A stretch of 64,000 nucleotides of DNA from a virus. The notes under the pieces were generated by a model, which was not told the origin of the DNA, searched no databases, and saw only the letters and a list, made by a program, of their open reading frames with translations. Each line of letters opens with the position of its first letter. Within the stretch, counting starts at the first letter, position 1. The stretch covers positions 44,475 to 108,474 of IMG/VR virus record IMGVR_UViG_3300020477_001475. One strand, 5' to 3'. Positions 7,717-63,147 of this stretch are shown here, piece by piece. Made by a program: the position numbers and the translations under genes.

Positions 7717-10700
7717 TTAATTACCTAAAATCATATTTACTATGCTTACTATGTCAGTTACATTAACTTGACCATCACCATTAACATCAGAACATTCTGT
7801 TAAATCATTTCCTACAGCACTTTCTAAACTTAAATCCACACCACTCAAAACAAAATTAACAATACTTACGACATCAGAAACATTAACATCACCAGTACCA
7901 TTTACATCACCCGGAATACATGACACAACATCTTCGACAGTACCACTGAATAAATATCCAAAAACATAATCTATTTTATCATTTAATTCTTGTTCTTTTT
8001 GTGTTATCCTTTCACTCTTTAACTTTACATTCTTCTTATTAGAAAATGTTTTAACTTTAGTGTGAAGACTTCCAATTTGATCAGAAAATGAAATTATATT
8101 TGATGTTCTGTATTTAGTTGGTATTATATTAGTAACAATAACTTCAACTACATCAGAACCTATCATTTCTTGTTCAGGTAATCCAAATGTTTCACCTAAA
8201 ACTTCCAACTTAAATTTAAGAACAATTTCATCATAACCTTGTGGTAATTCTGGTGCTTCCCATTCCAAATATGGAGATTCAGACCAAGGCAGTATATGTT
8301 CTGGTGTTCTTCTTTGTGGGTTAATAGGGTTATCTGTAATTGGATTTCCTATAAAAACCCATTCGTTACCATTCCAACGATACCATCTATATTTCAATGA
8401 TTCAGTACTACCATCACATATAGAATTAGCAGCTTGAAATGAATTACTACCATCTAACACAAATTTTCTCAATGGTTTAACCCAAAAATCTTCATTAACT
8501 ATTGCTACAACTGGTGGTATTATAGATGTAGAAACTTTAAACCCAGGTTCAAGTCTATGTACATACTCCCAACTACAACCATTTTGTTCACAATCTTCTT
8601 GATTTGTAATTGACAAATCACATTCACAAAATTCACTATACCATTGTCCTCCTGATGAATCTTGTTCCCATTCAAATACTCTATGGTCATCGTCAATAAT
8701 ATTATCCGTATATGCTTCTATTTTAAATAAGAAGTCAGTATCATAAGGTTCTTCTGAATTGTTATATGGATAACTACCACCATATCTTATCCATTCCCTA
8801 CAAGATAAATTTTGCCAATCATATATGGAATTATATCCAATAGAATATGAAGTATCATTTATATTAAAACCAGAATTAGTAATTCTTATATCAAAGGGTA
8901 TTTGATATAAATCATCAATACCTTGTACAGTACCAGGATTAGAAACTGTAAACCAACCATCTCTAGGAATTTCAAATAAGTGTCCATATTGGTCGTGTAC
9001 CCTTGATACAATTCTCAATCTAACATCAGTTATAGTTTGTGTACTATATACTTGTGCACGAAATTTTATAATATCATCTAAAATTACAGATGGAGTATCA
9101 TAATCACAATCACTTGGGTTATGATAATACCAATCAAAATCATAATTACCAGCATTAGGATCACTACAACCTGTACAAACATCCCAAAAATCTAAACAAC
9201 AATTACCCTCATCATACATACATTCTAATATATCACAAGAACAGTAATCACCACCAACATTAGAATTCCCACATTCATCTACACATGACCCTCTAAATGA
9301 ACAACAAATTTCATCAGTACCAGATGAAGGGAAAGTTTCATAAATATTACCACCACAATCTACCCACACAGATTCACCATCATAAATACCTGTTGGATAT
9401 GGATCAAAATTAATAGCTTCTTGATTTAAACATTCAGCACATACAGTATTATCACCATCACAAATATTACAAACATCAATTTCTGAATCACAGTAACATA
9501 ATGCTTCATTATCTTCATAATCATTAGTATCAATAAATTCGTAACCATCAGGACAACCACCATCTATGACAAGATTTTCATCACCTTCACATGCAATTAA
9601 AATTTGGTTATCTTGGAAATTACACCCAATACCATCACAATCATAATCCAAATAATAACATTTAGGTGTTATACAACAACCATCTAACCCGTGAGTTTCA
9701 GTACATTGAGTATTAGGTATACCTTCTTCCCAATTAGTTGTCCAAAAATTATAAATTACATTTTTATTACAATAATCGCCACTTCCACTTATCATACCAT
9801 TAGCAACACCAACACAACCAAAATCAACTGCATCTTGGTCAAGATTGTCAACACAACCCACAAATTCACAATCACCAGAATCTACTGTACAAGTTTCACA
9901 ATAATTGAAAGCTCCTTGATCTGTACAACCATAACAATAATCATCATCTTCAAAACCATTTGGAACACAACCACAATGTTCAGTGAGATATTCTTGATTT
10001 GTACAACAACATTCACAATGTTCTTCACCATCTTGATGCCCTAAATGATTTTGACATTCACAAGGACCATCACCATTACAGATACCACATTCATCTTCTA
10101 ATGCACTACCATTACATGAACCTTCACAATCAAAATAATTTTCTTCACAATCACAATATTCATCCGCTTCACCACAATCTTCTGTAGTAGGGTATTCAGT
10201 ACATTCTTCAAATCCTGGACACCAATATTGTAAATCGTCACAACATCCTATACCATCACCATCTGAATCATAATAACGAATATTTTCATAATATGGATTA
10301 CACAAATCTGGGTTGTGATGTACTCCATCTAAATCTTCAGCACAATCTACTACATTAACTTCATCACAATTATAATTACCATTATATATACCTTTAGCTT
10401 TAGGATTCAAACTACTAATATGATGGACATGTTCCTCATATAAAACTTCATAATCACCAAAAGTTGGATTATCTATACCTGAAATAGCTGGACAAGGACA
10501 TTTATCTATACCTTCAGGACAATCTACACCATTAACACCATCGTCACAATAAAATAAACATCCAGAAAAGATACAACAACAATTCTCATATTCACAATCA
10601 GGACATTGAGCACCAGCATTATCTGCACCAGAATCTTCATCACATTCATATGTAAGATCACATTGTAAATCGAACAAATCACTTCCATCTAGATAACAGT

Positions 10701-13728: not shown

Positions 13729-13916
13729 GAATTAGGATCAATATTTACAACCTTTTGTTCACGTAAATGTGTAGCAGTTTGATTGTCTATCTTCCTATGA
13801 GGTGAATTATTATTACTCAAAGATTGTTCTACCCAAAATAATTCACTTGGTTCTATATCTTTATATCTATAAGAAAGCCAATCTATATGACCTTTTTCCT
13901 TTGGAAAATCCGGCAT
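13704..13916 (-). CDS. Hypothetical protein
   Basis: ORF in operon context. Confidence 0.45.
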   Translation of the reverse strand: MPDFPKEKGHIDWLSYRYKDIEPSELFWVEQSLSNNNSPHRKIDNQTATHLREQKVVNIDPNSWVYQKDY

Positions 13917-18637: not shown

Positions 18638-19144
18638 TCATGGTACTATTGGTTCATTATCAATACTGTTATCATAAATATAAAAATCACCACGTATATG
18701 TGAATTTACCAAATTATCATCCACCCATTTACTATAAAAATCTTTATAATTTTTTTTATATTCATCTAAATTTTCTTCTTTATAAAAATATTTTGATTTT
18801 AATCTACCCAACCACACATCAATATCACCACATTCCACTAAAATAATAGTACAATTATTATTCAAATAATAATCTTCAAATGATTTTATTGGATTTTCTG
18901 GTGGTACAGCATCCATTATTAATTTATCACCATTTTCAATCAGTTTAAAAATATTTTTTATACCTTTGTCAGGATCATGATAAGGATAATTTTTATCAAA
19001 ACTAATAAATTTATAATCTCCATTCTTTTCTACAAATTTTTTAGAAAAATGTGTTTTCCCTGAACCGAATAAACCAGTTACAAATATTTTAGATTTAAAA
19101 TTACTACTGCCCATACTTTTTAGTTTCTGCATTAAAACCTCCAA
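18638..19144 (-). CDS. P-loop kinase-like protein
   Basis: GLFGSGKT Walker A, LIMD. Confidence 0.65.
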   Translation of the reverse strand: MEVLMQKLKSMGSSNFKSKIFVTGLFGSGKTHFSKKFVEKNGDYKFISFDKNYPYHDPDKGIKNIFKLIENGDKLIMDAVPPENPIKSFEDYYLNNNCTIILVECGDIDVWLGRLKSKYFYKEENLDEYKKNYKDFYSKWVDDNLVNSHIRGDFYIYDNSIDNEPIVP

Positions 19145-32947: not shown

Positions 32948-33780
32948 ATAACCTCTCTATTTAATTTTTCTGACTTATAAGGCATTGTATTAAAAGCTTT
33001 GCCGGAACCATTATTCCATATTTTTTCCAAAAGAAGTCTATTTCTAGTAACATCTTCTACTTTATCATCCCATGATGCATAATGAACATCCCCATGCCAT
33101 TGGTGAAATACAACCAAGTCGTCTATTATTTTAATTTTCATATTTTTAGCTCTTATCCTAAAAACCAAATCATCATCATCATAAGAACAACCAAAAGCGA
33201 ATCTTTCATCAAAACCACCAATATCTACAAAATCTTTTCTAGTAATAGCTGTACACCAATGAAAAGCTTTTGGTCTATAAACACTATGATTATAAAATGC
33301 CAATTCGTTACCATTATCTGGATTTGGATTATTATCACATGACCATGGATTTAAACTTATATCATCCAATTCACCATTACCTAATTTATCTGTAGTTTCT
33401 TTGTTTAAAGCGTAAACAGCTGTCGATATATATTCATTTTCAACTAAATTTTTATCTACATATGAACATATATCAGAAGTATGAAAACATTCAGGATTTT
33501 GAATTATAATAGCATCACCAGTAGAATTAGCTAATGCAATATTATAAGGTATACAGGGATTCAGCCACCATTTATTATGATTCTCTATTTTAATAACTTT
33601 TATATCTAAATCAAAATATTCCTTTATATCACTTAAATCATGTTCTGAATTACTACCATCATCCACTATAACAATTTCTAATTTATCAACAACTTCAGAT
33701 TGTGATATAGATTGCAATGTATTAAACAACAACTTCCTTCTATTATAATAAGACATTACTATTGATATCTTTTTATACAT
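32923..33780 (-). CDS. Glycosyltransferase family 2
   Basis: SIVMSYYNR, VDDGS, GGFDERF..YDDDD, HQWH. Confidence 0.85.
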   Translation of the reverse strand: MYKKISIVMSYYNRRKLLFNTLQSISQSEVVDKLEIVIVDDGSNSEHDLSDIKEYFDLDIKVIKIENHNKWWLNPCIPYNIALANSTGDAIIIQNPECFHTSDICSYVDKNLVENEYISTAVYALNKETTDKLGNGELDDISLNPWSCDNNPNPDNGNELAFYNHSVYRPKAFHWCTAITRKDFVDIGGFDERFAFGCSYDDDDLVFRIRAKNMKIKIIDDLVVFHQWHGDVHYASWDDKVEDVTRNRLLLEKIWNNGSGKAFNTMPYKSEKLNREVIWEKIVGN

Positions 33781-38377: not shown

Positions 38378-38785
38378 TTAATAAATTATTAAAGTTTTTT
38401 TATTAAATTTTTCGGCATATTTTAATGTAGATTCTGTACCACTCGTGCTTATGCCCTTTGGAATAAATGCAACTATATAATCACTAGTTCCAGCAATTAT
38501 CTTATTTCTAACATGATAATTCTTTACATGATAAGGCTTTCCATATCTAGATTCAGATAATGGGCAATATAAATTATGAGGAAAATGATCAGGTGGATAT
38601 TCTTCATATTGTAAACCCAATTCAAGAGCGTATTTCTTAGCGTATTTATCAGCCCCATCTTTACAACCACCACTTACGATTGTAGTATCTTCACCATGTT
38701 CTTGCTTCAATTTAAAAATAAAATCTTTTATTTTCTTTTTATTTTCATATTTACGACTGCCAATTATAGCTATTTTCATTAACAA
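38378..38785 (-). CDS. SLOG/DprA-like protein (YspA/DUF2493 type)
   Basis: IAIIGSR, IVSGGCKDGAD, RNKII, GTEST. Confidence 0.75.
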   Translation of the reverse strand: MLMKIAIIGSRKYENKKKIKDFIFKLKQEHGEDTTIVSGGCKDGADKYAKKYALELGLQYEEYPPDHFPHNLYCPLSESRYGKPYHVKNYHVRNKIIAGTSDYIVAFIPKGISTSGTESTLKYAEKFNKKTLIIY

Positions 38786-38866
38786 TTACCATTATTGAAA
38801 AGTAAAAACATGGCCAACATTATCAATTTATCTAAAATCCACAATGATATCAATATAGTCAATTTT

Positions 38867-39217
38867 TTATCTATTCCTATTTTCATTTTTTTTATCTATC
38901 CTTTTTATTTGTTTATAAATATTTTTATAATATTCCAAACCATCTAAAATATTACCTTCATATTTATACCTCCACCCACATTTATCACCATTATTTATAA
39001 CAAAAAAATTATAATTTATTATATCACCATTTTTATACGATTTATTTATCATATAATCATATTTTTTTACAAATTTATTAGTACTTCCATTCAACCCAAC
39101 TATATTCAATTCAAAATCTCTATTTTTGTAAAAAGATTTTAAAAAACTAACTACATTCTCTTCTTCACTTAATATATCTTCTATGTTAAGTAATAATGAA
39201 TAAACATGTCTACTCAA
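38867..39217 (-). CDS. Hypothetical protein
   Basis: 116-aa ORF abutting the upstream nuclease gene. Confidence 0.5.
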   Translation of the reverse strand: MSRHVYSLLLNIEDILSEEENVVSFLKSFYKNRDFELNIVGLNGSTNKFVKKYDYMINKSYKNGDIINYNFFVINNGDKCGWRYKYEGNILDGLEYYKNIYKQIKRIDKKNENRNR

Positions 39218-59390: not shown

Positions 59391-59795
59391 CTATCCGTTG
59401 AATACTTTTTTCTTTTCTCCATGATATTCGTAAGCATGACCATTCTCTTTAAGTAACTCATTTACTGACTTTTCGTGACCTTTTACAAATAATTCACCTA
59501 ATACTCTACCATATTTACCAGTTCCATGTGATATGATTGAGAACTTACCTTCATCTGAATTTTCAAGTAAATCTTTTGTGAATGCTTTAGCGGCTAAACC
59601 TTTTACTTTTTCTTCTTTGTTTCGTGTTCTTGATTCCCAAGTATCAACTCCCATAAATCTGATTCTTTTCTTAACCCAAGTATTAAAACCTAAGTCAATC
59701 ATAGCATCACAAGTATCACCATCAACTACTCTATCTAACTTACAGCTATATCCATGTTTTTTAACTTGTTTTCCCATTATCTTTCTCCCCATCAT
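59391..59795 (-). CDS. Staphylococcal nuclease (thermonuclease) homolog
   Basis: RVVDGDT, RIRFMGVDTWE, GKYGRVLG. Confidence 0.88.
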   Translation of the reverse strand: MMGRKIMGKQVKKHGYSCKLDRVVDGDTCDAMIDLGFNTWVKKRIRFMGVDTWESRTRNKEEKVKGLAAKAFTKDLLENSDEGKFSIISHGTGKYGRVLGELFVKGHEKSVNELLKENGHAYEYHGEKKKVFNG

Positions 59796-59949
59796 CTTTT
59801 ATATCAGCTGTAAAGTATGAATTTATTTTTTTAACTGGAAGTTTTCCTAATTTATCAAATACAATATTTCCATCTTCATCTGTGACATAATCACTTGGTT
59901 TAGTTCCAGCTAATCCATACTTGTCCTGTAATTCCATTCCTATATTCAT
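59761..59949 (-). CDS. Hypothetical protein
   Basis: ATGA-coupled to the upstream gene. Confidence 0.45.
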   Translation of the reverse strand: MNIGMELQDKYGLAGTKPSDYVTDEDGNIVFDKLGKLPVKKINSYFTADIKDDGEKDNGKTS

Positions 59950-61448
59950 TCAGTACTCTCCCAATTATAATTCAATACGTCTAATCTATTTCTAACATCT
60001 AATTGTGGAAAGTTTTCTTCCAACCATTCAACTGATTCAGTGAATGTCGTTCCAAGTATCTGACCTACAACTTGTATTATATCTAAAATATTTAAAATAC
60101 CATCATTGTTTATATCACTAACTAAAAATTGTAAATCAGTTGGTTGGTTTACATTCAACACAAAATTAACTATTTGAACCACATCAACTATATTAATCTC
60201 TCCATCAAAGTTAACATCACCATATAGAATTGATTGAACATCTATACAATCAGGTGTATTACTTTCTATTTCATCACCATTTGTATCTGATATAACTATA
60301 TCTGATGCACAAACTTCAACATCTTCATAAGTCGGTGTAAAATTAATTATCGTTAATGTACCACTACCCGCAGGAATCACACTACCATCAAATGAAAATC
60401 CTAATACAACACCTTGTTCACTTGTAGATACCGTAAAATCATAATTTTCAGCTTCACCACCGCTAGCACCCAACACATCAATTAAATCAGGGGTATCTGT
60501 TAGAGTGAATTGAAATCCCGCAACATCAATATTTGATTCATAATTCACCAATAAATAATCAGTTCCTGGATATTCAAATGTTAAATTTATATAATCACTT
60601 TCTTCTTCTTCAGGTTCACCAATGTAACCAAAAAACCAATCAAGTCTAGACCAGACTTTTGAGTATACTCCCGGATACCCAGCATCAGCTCAACCATATC
60701 CCCAACTGACTATACCGATAAGTTCATATTCACCATCTGAATTAGTCATAATAAGTGGTCCACCACTATCTCCTTGACAAGAATCTTCACCACCATTGTT
60801 ATCACCTGCACATATCATATTATTTGTTATTTCATTACTAATGTAACCACAATCATCATCAATAGGTACATCCACTTCTAATAATACATCAGAACCCCAG
60901 CCACCAGAATAGGTTGCACCCCAACCCATAACTGTTGATATAATTGGTTCTTCATGATGTGATTCATCTGTAACTAATTGTATAGGTTCAAATGTAGTAA
61001 CTGGTTGTGTTAAATGTAATAGAGCATAATCATTATCCAATGACCAACCACTATAATTTGGATGAACTATAATTTGGTCTACATTTCTTGTAACAGCACC
61101 ACTTGTTCCATTCACATTATGCAATCCAACCTTTACTTGTAATCCACCAGGAGATTCTCCTTCTACACAATGTGCGGCTGTTACAACCCAATCTTCTCTA
61201 ACAAGTGAACCACCACAAAAGTGCCCCCAACCATTTCCTTGTAATGAAACCATAAATGGATATTTACAATCCGGACATTCAGGATCAACTTCCTCTCCCC
61301 CAACTATAAATGGTTCTGGCAAATCACCATGATTAGGCATTTCATTTTGAGTTGAATATGTTTCTAAATAACTATTTGTTATCGGGATTGAATTATCACT
61401 CTGGCACCCTAAAACCATTAATAACATTATCAAAAATAATTTCTTCAT
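59946..61448 (-). CDS. Lipoprotein trypsin-like serine protease with cohesin-like and dockerin domains, 500 aa if the in-frame UGA (60690-60692) is read as selenocysteine
   Basis: Lipobox LVLGC; IVGG, TAAHC, DYALL, DSCQGDSGGP, SWGYG-UGA-ADAGYPGVY continuing without a stop into the 59946-60551 ORF. Confidence 0.8.
60642..60689 (-). promoter_or_regulatory. Candidate bacterial SECIS element(s) directly 3' of the UGA
   Basis: Hairpins TGGGTAT-CCGGGAGT-ATACTCA (60660-60681) and AAGTCT-GGTCT-AGACTT (60642-60658). Confidence 0.55.
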
Positions 61449-62016: not shown

Positions 62017-62442
62017 TTATTTTATTCCAGTACTTCCAAACCCATTTTCTCCTCTATGAGTATTGTGTAATTCTTTGACATCCTCAACTTCAAAACTAAC
62101 AACTTGTGTTGGAATTAATTGTGCTATTTTATCACCTTGTTCTATTTTAATTGATGTAGCACTAACATTATGAAATAAAACTTTTATTTTACCTGTATAA
62201 CCTGCATCTATCACACCTGCATGTGTAAACAACCCTTTAACTGCCATAGAACTTCTATCCTTAATAATCCAACCCCATCTACCATTAGAACATTTTACAG
62301 AAATACCAGTTGAAATTAATTTATATTCACCAGATGGTATCCATTTATCTTCGTCTGCAAATATATCATATCCCAAATCACCTTGATGTGCTCTAACAGG
62401 TAATTTCGCAGTTTTCGAATGCCTTTTTACATTTAATTCCAT
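62017..62442 (-). CDS. dut: dUTPase (trimeric)
   Basis: GYDI, DRSS, AGVIDAGYTG, IAQL, RGENGFGSTG. Confidence 0.93.
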   Translation of the reverse strand: MELNVKRHSKTAKLPVRAHQGDLGYDIFADEDKWIPSGEYKLISTGISVKCSNGRWGWIIKDRSSMAVKGLFTHAGVIDAGYTGKIKVLFHNVSATSIKIEQGDKIAQLIPTQVVSFEVEDVKELHNTHRGENGFGSTGIK

Positions 62443-62459
62443 TAATCTCCCGAAAATTT

Positions 62460-62868
62460 AAATTAATGTGTAGTTAGGGAATACAATAACACCCATCTCT
62501 ACTTTTTTTGTATGTTGCTACACATTATAATAATGTCACCAATCCGTTGGTCCTTTCGGTGGTCTATTGGGATTTGATGACTCTTTTTCTATTCATAAGT
62601 TTGAAGTGCTGTAAGACCAAATATTACCGTTTATTTTAACTCGTCAAATGTACACGAACAATTCGTTCATTATACCTCCTTGATTTAGTTTAAGTCGATA
62701 CCCCTATAATACTTTCAATCTCAACTCAATCAAATTCAAACCTTTCGGTAACCCCATTGATATTTTGTATCTTGATTACTACTCATATTATAGAGTATTG
62801 TATCAACCCTTTTGATTACGCTATTGCGTTCTTTTATCATTAAGTGATAAGTGCTGTAGGGTTAAATA
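62460..62868 (-). ncRNA. Candidate large structured non-coding RNA
   Basis: ~470-nt gap with no ORF >=60 aa in a gene-dense genome; many hairpins, two ACC-GAAA-GG tetraloops, duplicated TACAGCACTT, 10-bp stem TAATGTGTAG/CTACACATTA. Confidence 0.55.
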
Positions 62869-62913
62869 TGTATATAAATATATATAATATTATCTATACA
62901 AAACAACGTTTTT

Positions 62914-63147
62914 TTATACTATTTCCATTTTAGTGAAATCAGTTTCTTCAAATGATTGATAATAATCATCATCACTTTCAAAATCTAAAAGATCATTTGA
63001 ATTTTTTATATCAATACACAAATCTTCCAAATGTTCTGACATATCATCACTTGTAAGATTTCCATTTTCATATTCAGCCCTTATGGCTTCTATTTGTTGT
63101 ACTATTTCTACAATTGTCATATTAAATACTCCTTTTCTTAATGACAT
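62914..63147 (-). CDS. Acidic hypothetical protein
   Basis: AGGAG SD before the internal MTIVEI. Confidence 0.5.
   Translation of the reverse strand: MSLRKGVFNMTIVEIVQQIEAIRAEYENGNLTSDDMSEHLEDLCIDIKNSNDLLDFESDDDYYQSFEETDFTKMEIV

What the first reader, a model, noticed from the sequence alone, without database searches (positions are those of the whole stretch)
62460..62868. Unannotated ~410-nt structured RNA candidate with a two-module repeat
This is the largest ORF-free gap in the window. On the minus strand TACAGCACTT occurs twice (62849-62858, 62604-62613), each followed downstream by an ACCGAAAGG GNRA hairpin (62741-62749, 62552-62560). Further stems: TTATCA/TGATAA, ACGC/GCGT, TTGAT..TACTC/GAGTA..ATCAA, long-range CCCTACAGCACTT/AAGTATTATAGGG, CCAAT/ATTGG and a 10-bp TAATGTGTAG/CTACACATTA. 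It starts right after a TTGTTT promoter-like motif and an ATATTTAT motif. I do not recognise it as tmRNA, RNase P or a known riboswitch. An alternative is a DNA element such as an origin with iterons.
Basis: partly seen in the sequence, partly recalled or inferred. Interest (0 to 1): 0.7.

Follow-up and report, generated by a model that had tools for sequence, protein, structure and literature searches.

The report
Orphan non-coding leader with RNA hairpin
A 471-base gene-free stretch in a marine T4-like phage starts at one of the phage's own standard promoters and holds one unusually stable RNA hairpin, but no related phage has it and no known RNA family matches, so it is most likely a lineage-specific regulatory leader, not a new large RNA.

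Summary
The gap (62443-62913) is real and is the largest ORF-free stretch in the window.

The proposed 410-nt two-module fold is not supported:
- The whole gap folds only slightly better than shuffles (z -1.8).
- Module B is ordinary (z -0.5).
- The 10-bp stem is as common as chance allows.

That structure is a 118-nt hairpin capped by a GAAA loop (62692-62809, minus strand). Its energy is -32 kcal/mol (z -5.2). It forms only on the gene strand.

The gap begins with a member of a ten-copy phage promoter class, so the start is near 62870 and the leader before dUTPase is about 427 nt.

Rfam gave nothing. None of 28 related loci has a comparable gap. Motif scans of viral and genome collections gave only chance hits. 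One metagenomic protein shows that part of module A exists elsewhere, fused to another small gene.

Covariation and transcription could not be tested.

Best reading (0.4): a shuffled, lineage-specific cis-acting leader.

The parts
62877..62910 (-). Promoter P1. An A-tract is followed by AACGTTGTTTTGTAT. The -35 TTGTTT is at 62901-62906, then an 18-nt spacer, then the -10 TATATT at 62877-62882. The inferred start is near 62870.
   Evidence: The pattern TTGT[TA]T-N18-TA[AT]ATT occurs 10 times on the gene strand of the contig, always intergenic, and once on the other strand. The 15-nt core recurs exactly at three sites. The start site is inferred, not measured.
62829..62869 (-). Copy A of the 41-nt direct repeat. 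It contains ATATTT, then 7 nt, then ACAGCACTT (TACAGCACTT at 62849-62858).
62584..62624 (-). Copy B of the 41-nt direct repeat (71% identical to copy A; TACAGCACTT at 62604-62613). Its ATATT overlaps the -10 of a sigma-70-like match: TTGACG at 62642-62647, 16 nt, AATATT at 62620-62625.
62834..62850 (-). 6-bp hairpin UUAUCA/UGAUAA.
   Evidence: Base-pair probability 0.92.
62818..62829 (-). 4-bp hairpin ACGC/GCGU.
   Evidence: Base-pair probability 0.98.
62692..62809 (-). Long imperfect hairpin of about 42 bp. The basal helices are 10 and 11 bp, separated by a 4-nt bulge. The apex is ACC-GAAA-GGU at 62740-62749.
   Evidence: Energy is -32 kcal/mol, z -5.2, matched by 0 of 200 shuffles; the plus strand gives only -13.4 kcal/mol, z -1.5. 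It would rank about 5th of 4259 windows of 120 nt after GC correction. The arm alignment has 6 G.U and 0 A.C.
62736..62840 (-). 34-codon ORF without a Shine-Dalgarno sequence. It overlaps the 5' arm and apex of the long hairpin. Its coding status is unknown.
   Evidence: 30 of its last 32 residues recur in P0121, a 63-aa metagenomic protein.
62638..62690 (-). Hairpin that encloses a perfect AAGGAGG (62675-62681), an AUG (62668-62670) and the whole 8-codon ORF (stop at 62644-62646).
   Evidence: z -2.1
62535..62581 (-). Module B hairpin: an 11-bp stem with one bulge. The second ACCGAAAGG (62552-62560) lies in its apical loop.
   Evidence: z -2.2
62464..62527 (-). 10-bp perfect stem with a 44-nt loop, just upstream of the dUTPase ribosome-binding site (GGGAG at 62447-62451).
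   Evidence: Stems of this kind are not rarer than chance genome-wide.
62017..62442 (-). dUTPase gene, the first gene downstream of the leader.
   Evidence: Pfam PF00692, E 7e-30. Its N-terminus aligns from M1 with 27 relatives.

Best explanation
The gap is a lineage-specific, non-coding 5' leader of the dUTPase transcription unit. It lies in a fast-shuffling region of small early-type genes in a marine T4-like phage.

Transcription starts at a standard phage promoter near 62870 (inferred). It runs about 427 nt before the dUTPase start codon.

The leader was assembled by partial duplication and illegitimate recombination: a 41-nt start-proximal repeat, the ACCGAAAGG apex motif, and a junction at TGATAAAA seen in another contig.

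Its one strongly structured element is a 118-nt RNA hairpin with a GAAA cap. About 21 bp at its base are nearly continuous duplex. The most likely role (inferred) is in cis, as a processing or stability element of the kind double-strand-specific RNases cut in phage early transcripts.

The following hairpin buries a strong ribosome-binding site and a mini-ORF, and may modulate ribosome loading.

This is not one compact 410-nt RNA.
For: - Promoter class: 10 of 10 copies are intergenic on the gene strand. Other members sit 5-45 nt before start codons, so this leader is exceptional in length.
- No intrinsic terminator lies within the gap.
- The hairpin 62692-62809 has z -5.2. It is specific to the gene strand: -32 against -13.4 kcal/mol, with 6 G.U and 0 A.C. 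It is in the top 0.2% of local structures.
- Module A as a whole gave z -3.6 and -3.3 on recomputation. Two of 48 background windows reached -3.0 or lower.
- The internal repeats exceed chance.
- The gap is absent from 7 dUTPase relatives and 21 trypsin-module relatives. The gene order upstream is not conserved.
- P0121 fuses 33 residues of an unrelated small membrane protein family to the module A reading. This shows modular shuffling.
- Composite terminator-promoter cassettes occur in this genome. Such cassettes are described for T4-like hyperplastic regions (PMC4122927, PMC2839356).
Against: - No transcript data were obtained, so the start, the extent and any processing are all inferred.
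- No homologous DNA was recovered, so neither conservation nor covariation of the hairpin is known.
- About six coding-region windows in the same 64 kb fold comparably well after GC correction. I estimate roughly a 3% chance that a gap this size holds such a hairpin by accident.
- The hairpin boundaries were chosen after seeing the fold.
- The exact 9-nt conservation of ACCGAAAGG between the modules is not explained by a simple processing role.
Confidence: 0.4

Rival explanations
1. One or two free-standing small RNAs (module A about 230 nt, module B about 170 nt). Each starts at ACAGCACUU behind its own -10-like ATATT and carries a hairpin with an ACC-GAAA-GG apex. They would act in trans on phage or host targets or bind a protein.
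For: - Both modules share ATATTT-N7-ACAGCACTT and the apex motif.
- A sigma-70-like match precedes module B.
- Module A is significantly structured.
- One promoter of the same class lies in the gap that another first-reader note says holds tRNA-like RNAs.
Against: - No terminator or defined 3' end.
- Module B has no excess stability.
- No Rfam match.
- No homologue in any collection searched.
- The relative seen through P0121 lacks the shared 5' motif.
Confidence: 0.2
2. A non-functional recombination scar. The sequence is left over from gene loss and cassette duplication in a hyperplastic region, and its hairpin and repeats have no role.
For: - The gap is unique to this lineage. The relatives are tightly packed, with no gap of 250 nt or more in 28 loci.
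- There is a microhomology junction.
- Most of the stems are at chance level.
Against: - The strand-specific stability of the hairpin, z -5.2.
- Phage genomes rarely keep 471 useless bases.
- No detectable coding remnant: stops of all three kinds occur in all frames, and tblastx hits are chance antisense matches.
- Fourteen DNA runs hold 42-93% of the sampled words of 62300-63000. Their recorded years are 2014, 2021 and 2025, and four rows give no year. None of them was laid.
Confidence: 0.2
3. The gap encodes small proteins: the 34-codon ORF (62739-62840) and perhaps the 8- and 10-codon ORFs. The RNA structures would be incidental.
For: - 30 of 32 residues of the ORF are kept in P0121.
- This phage seems to use starts without a Shine-Dalgarno sequence, and leaderless starts.
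- The 8-codon ORF has a perfect AAGGAGG.
Against: - The P0121 match is near-identical sequence read through by a gene caller, so it says nothing about selection.
- The module B counterpart is not in the same frame (and the sequence itself).
- No family match in PHROGs.
- The ORF lacks a ribosome-binding site and runs through the 5' arm of the hairpin.
Confidence: 0.12
4. A DNA element such as a replication origin with iterons and an AT-rich unwinding tract.
For: An AT-rich tract at 62863-62898 with a 12-nt x2 repeat, plus the short direct repeats.
Against: - Only two copies of the 9-10-nt motifs, and no iteron array.
- The AT-rich tract is the promoter itself.
- The main inverted repeat pairs well on one strand only, so it would make a poor DNA cruciform.
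- Cumulative GC skew is monotonic across the window. This is a weak test, because only 1.1 kb lies beyond the gap.
Confidence: 0.05

Closest known systems
PeSL cassettes (promoter-early stem-loop) of T4-like hyperplastic regions (PMC2839356, PMC4122927)
   Same: - A conserved sigma-70-like early promoter class is reused across the genome (TTGTTT-N18-TAWATT, close to the published TTGYVH-N17-TAWWAT).
- Terminator-promoter composites are present elsewhere in this contig.
- The locus lies in a region whose gene content differs between relatives.
- There is evidence of recombination at short homologies.
   Different: - PeSLs are short (tens of bases) and repeated many times.
- Here the promoter is followed by about 427 nt of unique sequence.
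- The 118-nt hairpin is single-copy and has no U-tract.
- The 41-nt repeat occurs only inside this gap.
RNase III processing hairpins in phage early polycistronic transcripts (T7 early region; from general knowledge)
   Same: - An irregular hairpin with about two turns of near-continuous duplex interrupted by a bulge.
- It is located between genes in an early-type transcript.
- It has no terminator tail.
   Different: - Cleavage has not been shown.
- This hairpin is about twice as long.
- It carries a GNRA cap.
- There is no sequence relation to the known sites.
Large phage-associated RNAs in Rfam (GOLLD, ROOL, HEARO and others) and riboswitch tandems
   Same: A long non-coding stretch in a phage, with GNRA loops and a two-module look.
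   Different: - No match at gathering thresholds.
- The best permissive hits are unrelated eukaryotic families at E 0.15 or worse.
- No conservation outside this lineage.
Lambda-type nut sites (boxA plus boxB hairpin; from general knowledge, a lead only)
   Same: A conserved linear motif followed by a hairpin with a GNRA-type loop. It occurs twice, downstream of early promoters.
   Different: - The motif-to-hairpin spacing is 99 and 43 nt, instead of a few bases.
- The motif matches about 5 of 9 positions of the rrn-type boxA consensus as I recall it (from memory, not a tool result).
- No N-like protein was identified.

Membership tests
Any Rfam 15 family (including GOLLD, ROOL, tmRNA, RNase P, riboswitches, group I/II introns) | Covariance-model score at or above the family's gathering threshold. 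| tested here: not met
   No hit in the whole window at gathering thresholds. In permissive mode on 62300-63000 the best hits are 22 bits against thresholds of 50-83. ARAGORN found no tRNA or tmRNA.
Group I intron | It interrupts a gene whose exons join into one reading frame. | tested here: not met
   The dUTPase is complete from M1 and aligns over its full length with 27 relatives. The upstream 77-aa ORF ends at its own stop. Relatives have no split gene at this position.
PeSL mobile regulatory cassette | An early sigma-70-like promoter of a genome-wide conserved type. | tested here: met
   10 copies on the gene strand, all intergenic.
PeSL mobile regulatory cassette | A short stem-loop or terminator directly joined to the promoter, with the composite repeated at many sites. 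| tested here: not met
   No stem-loop precedes this promoter. The long hairpin and the 41-nt repeat are unique to the gap. Composites do exist at other sites.
PeSL mobile regulatory cassette | Association with insertions or deletions between related phages. | tested here: inconclusive
   The gap is absent from all 28 related loci, and the upstream gene order varies. The available relatives are too distant (61-81% protein identity) to define the indel ends.
Iteron-type replication origin | An array of three or more direct repeats of about 17-22 bp beside an AT-rich unwinding element. | tested here: not met
   Only two-copy repeats of 9-12 nt.
RNase III processing site | About 20 bp or more of duplex RNA in a transcript. 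| tested here: met
   Basal helices of 10 and 11 bp with base-pair probability 0.92-0.98. This is a prediction only.
RNase III processing site | Cleavage by the enzyme. | not testable with these tools
   Needs an in vitro cleavage assay or mapped RNA ends.
Conserved structured RNA (general criterion) | Homologues with compensatory base changes. | not testable with these tools
All collection scans gave only chance hits.

The most novel reading that the evidence does not exclude
Module A (about 62625-62870), or both modules together, is a new phage-encoded regulatory RNA. It would be built on long hairpins with an invariant ACC-GAAA-GG apex behind a conserved ACAGCACUU 5' motif, recognised by a phage or host protein or docking in trans. 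It would be restricted so far to one abundant marine myovirus lineage.
Probability: 0.12. Interest if true: 0.55.

Novelty: new member of a known kind. Interest (0 to 1): 0.3.

Why it matters
If the hairpin is functional, it would be an example of RNA-level control of an early operon in an uncultured marine T4-like phage that occurs in many ocean samples. The locus also illustrates how promoter cassettes and short homologies reshuffle small genes in such phages. As it stands, this is a single-lineage element with no comparative support. Its value is mainly as a defined target for transcript mapping: a promoter class, a predicted start and one hairpin.

Tried and rejected
- **Rfam.** Gathering and permissive modes gave nothing.
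- **GenBank phages.** blastn of the gap: no match.
- **IMG/VR motif scans.** Three scans (TACAGCACTT..ACCGAAAGG, ATATTT..TACAGCACTT, promoter..ACAGCAC) gave only chance hits in coding DNA.
- **Relatives through dUTPase.** IMG/VR single protein: none. Alignment: 53 loci. JGI metagenomes: 4 loci. None has the gap, and blastn/nhmmer found no similarity.
- **Relatives through the 77-aa ORF.** None.
- **Relatives through the trypsin gene.** 21 loci, with no similarity and no dUTPase upstream.
- **Whole related records.** BLAST found nothing.
- **P0121 as a query.** No relative in IMG/VR or in the genome collection.
- **Apex 19-mer in the genome collection.** Five hits that match the motif only.
- **Stop-codon recoding.** Rejected, because all three stop codons occur in every frame.
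- **Decayed gene.** Rejected. An apparent tblastx hit turned out to be an antisense chance match to a PLP-enzyme gene.
- **Plus-strand 43-aa ORF.** No homologue.
- **The 34-aa ORF.** Too short for the word-indexed search.
- **The look-up of encoding contigs.** Closed.
- **Sequencing runs.** 14 DNA and 6 RNA marine runs hold parts of 62300-63000. Since none was laid, I cannot say which part the RNA runs hold. I do not count this as evidence of transcription.
- **Paper search.** The search for the nearest isolate, Mel-JY01, found nothing.

Full report
**Context**

The window is the last 64 kb of a 108-kb IMG/VR virus contig, estimated about 55% complete. It is AT-rich (26-34% GC) and all its genes lie on the minus strand.

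Its family B DNA polymerase is T4-like. The nearest isolate is Microcystis phage Mel-JY01, at 47% identity.

The finding lies between a 77-aa ORF (62914-63147) and a complete dUTPase gene (62017-62442; Pfam E 7e-30). It is 1.1 kb from the contig end.

**The observation**

The gap 62443-62913 (471 nt) is the largest stretch in the window without an ORF of 45 codons or more on the gene strand. The next largest are 236 nt at the contig end, which an open-ended ORF partly covers, then 199 and 172 nt.

ACCGAAAGG occurs nowhere else in the contig.

Two direct repeats of 9 nt or more, each with at least four G/C, arise in 1 of 1000 dinucleotide shuffles of the gap. The first repeat extends to 41 nt at 71% identity. 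A local alignment of the two halves scores 3.3 sd above shuffles. So a partial internal duplication is real.

The listed stems exist, but most are unremarkable:
- Perfect 10-bp inverted repeats with loops up to 60 nt are as common in the contig as in shuffles.
- The whole gap folds at z -1.8 on the minus strand and -1.2 on the plus strand.
- Module B (62443-62612) folds at z -0.5.
- In a GC-corrected scan of 150-nt windows, the module B region is less stable than the genome average.

Module A (62625-62870) folds at z -3.6, matched by 0 of 200 shuffles. Recomputed with 60 shuffles it gives -3.3, while 2 of 48 random windows of the same size reach -3.0 or lower.

The signal comes from one element, a 118-nt hairpin at 62692-62809:
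- It has basal helices of 10 and 11 bp separated by a 4-nt bulge, then five shorter helices.
- Its apex is ACC-GAAA-GGU.
- Base-pair probabilities in the basal helices are 0.92-0.98.
- Alone it gives -32 kcal/mol, z -5.2, and the minimum-energy fold makes up 23% of the ensemble.
- The complementary strand reaches only -13.4 kcal/mol, z -1.5.
- Aligning the two arms with a score that treats both kinds of transition mismatch alike gives 38 Watson-Crick positions, 6 G.U and no A.C.

The pairing is therefore a property of the gene-strand RNA, not of the DNA.

After GC correction the hairpin would rank about fifth of 4259 windows of 120 nt. The others at that level lie in coding regions. I estimate roughly a 3% chance that a gap of this size contains such a structure by accident.

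Those two stems are not the preferred fold.

Next comes a 53-nt hairpin (62638-62690, z -2.1). It encloses the perfect AAGGAGG, the AUG and the entire 8-codon ORF. This agrees with an earlier first-reader note.

In module B the second ACCGAAAGG also sits at the apex of a hairpin, an 11-bp stem at 62535-62581 (z -2.2).

**Promoter**

The gap opens with A-tract, AACGTTGTTTTGTAT, 18 nt, TATATT. The pattern TTGT[TA]T-N18-TA[AT]ATT occurs ten times on the gene strand of the contig, every time between genes, and once on the other strand.

The other members lie 5-45 nt before a start codon, or in the gap said to hold tRNA-like RNAs. Only this one is followed by about 427 nt without a gene.

No intrinsic terminator is predicted inside the gap. 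Genuine terminators elsewhere in the contig are easy to see. So read-through into dUTPase is the likely outcome. Neither the start site nor the read-through was measured.

**Search for relatives**

- Rfam gave no hit. ARAGORN gave none.
- GenBank phages: no DNA match. The closest dUTPase there is 49% identical.
- The dUTPase itself has hundreds of marine relatives at 71-83% identity.
- In the seven relatives whose DNA I could fetch (64-77%), it directly follows another ORF. One has a 159-nt spacer with a similar promoter-like GTTGTTTCGTATA. None shows similarity to the gap.
- Twenty-one contigs share the downstream trypsin-dockerin-nuclease module at 61-81% identity. They have other genes upstream and no dUTPase.
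- Across these 28 loci there is no ORF-free stretch of 250 nt or more.
- Motif scans built on the repeats, the promoter and the hairpin apex returned only chance matches.

**The one outside trace**

The 34-codon ORF that overlaps the 5' arm of the hairpin matches the last 32 residues of P0121 at 30 of 32. P0121 is a 63-aa protein predicted on a 530-nt metagenomic contig.

The first 33 residues of P0121 are those of an unrelated family of 46-56-aa membrane proteins. A short paralogue of that family lies at 38779-38886 in this window.

So module A from about 62834 downward exists in another genome behind a different 5' part. Back-translation of P0121 is compatible with a TGATAAAA microhomology at the junction; this is inferred, not seen in DNA.

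This shows modular shuffling.

It says nothing about coding selection, because the sequences are nearly identical. The DNA could not be fetched.

**Alternatives examined**

- Recoding of a stop codon does not open a frame.
- No decayed gene is detectable.
- The 34-aa ORF and P0121 match no phage protein family.
- An origin is unlikely, for the reasons given under the rival explanations.
- An intron is excluded, because both flanking genes are whole.

**Limits**

- The Logan index lists 14 DNA runs and 6 metatranscriptome runs that hold parts of 62300-63000. Without laying them I cannot tell which part the RNA runs hold.

**Verdict**

The best reading is a lineage-specific leader driven by a standard phage promoter, put together by duplication and illegitimate recombination. 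It holds one credible RNA hairpin that most likely acts in cis on the dUTPase transcript.

A new trans-acting RNA remains possible, at about one chance in eight. The element belongs to no known family.

Noticed in passing
window 62906, 51893, 49325, 41833, 12496 (minus strand) and five more sites upstream of the window in the contig: A phage promoter class: A-tract, TTGT[TA]T, 18 nt, TA[AT]ATT. There are ten copies on the gene strand, all intergenic, and one on the other strand. Three copies are followed by ATG within 5-8 nt, which suggests leaderless mRNAs.
   Followed up: partly
G000 contig 18981-19014 and 13860-13900 (upstream of the window): Classical GC-rich hairpin plus U-run terminators. 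The first is followed directly by a promoter of the class above, giving a terminator-promoter composite like the PeSL cassettes of T4-like phages.
   Followed up: partly
G000 contig 33636-33755 (window -10839 to -10720): A perfect 15-bp inverted repeat, GTAACAATATGTAAC / GTTACATATTGTTAC, encloses one promoter of the class. It lies in the gap where another first-reader note places tRNA-like genes.
   Followed up: no
window 38779-38886 (minus strand): An unlisted 35-aa ORF is a short paralogue of a family of 46-56-aa marine small membrane proteins (P0122 and 16 other sequences in metagenomes).
   Followed up: partly
window 59391-61448 and loci L075-L095: The trypsin, dockerin and staphylococcal-nuclease gene trio is conserved in order in 21 IMG/VR contigs (nuclease up to 91% identical), while everything upstream of the trypsin gene differs. 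This marks the border of a hyperplastic region.
   Followed up: partly
window 7813-7822 (plus strand): This is the only other exact TACAGCACTT in the window. The mRNA of the 1194-aa gene therefore carries its complement about 110 nt before the start of the giant downstream gene. The scan expected about 3 matches at up to one mismatch and found 7, which 5 of 100 shuffles reach, so this may well be chance.
   Followed up: no
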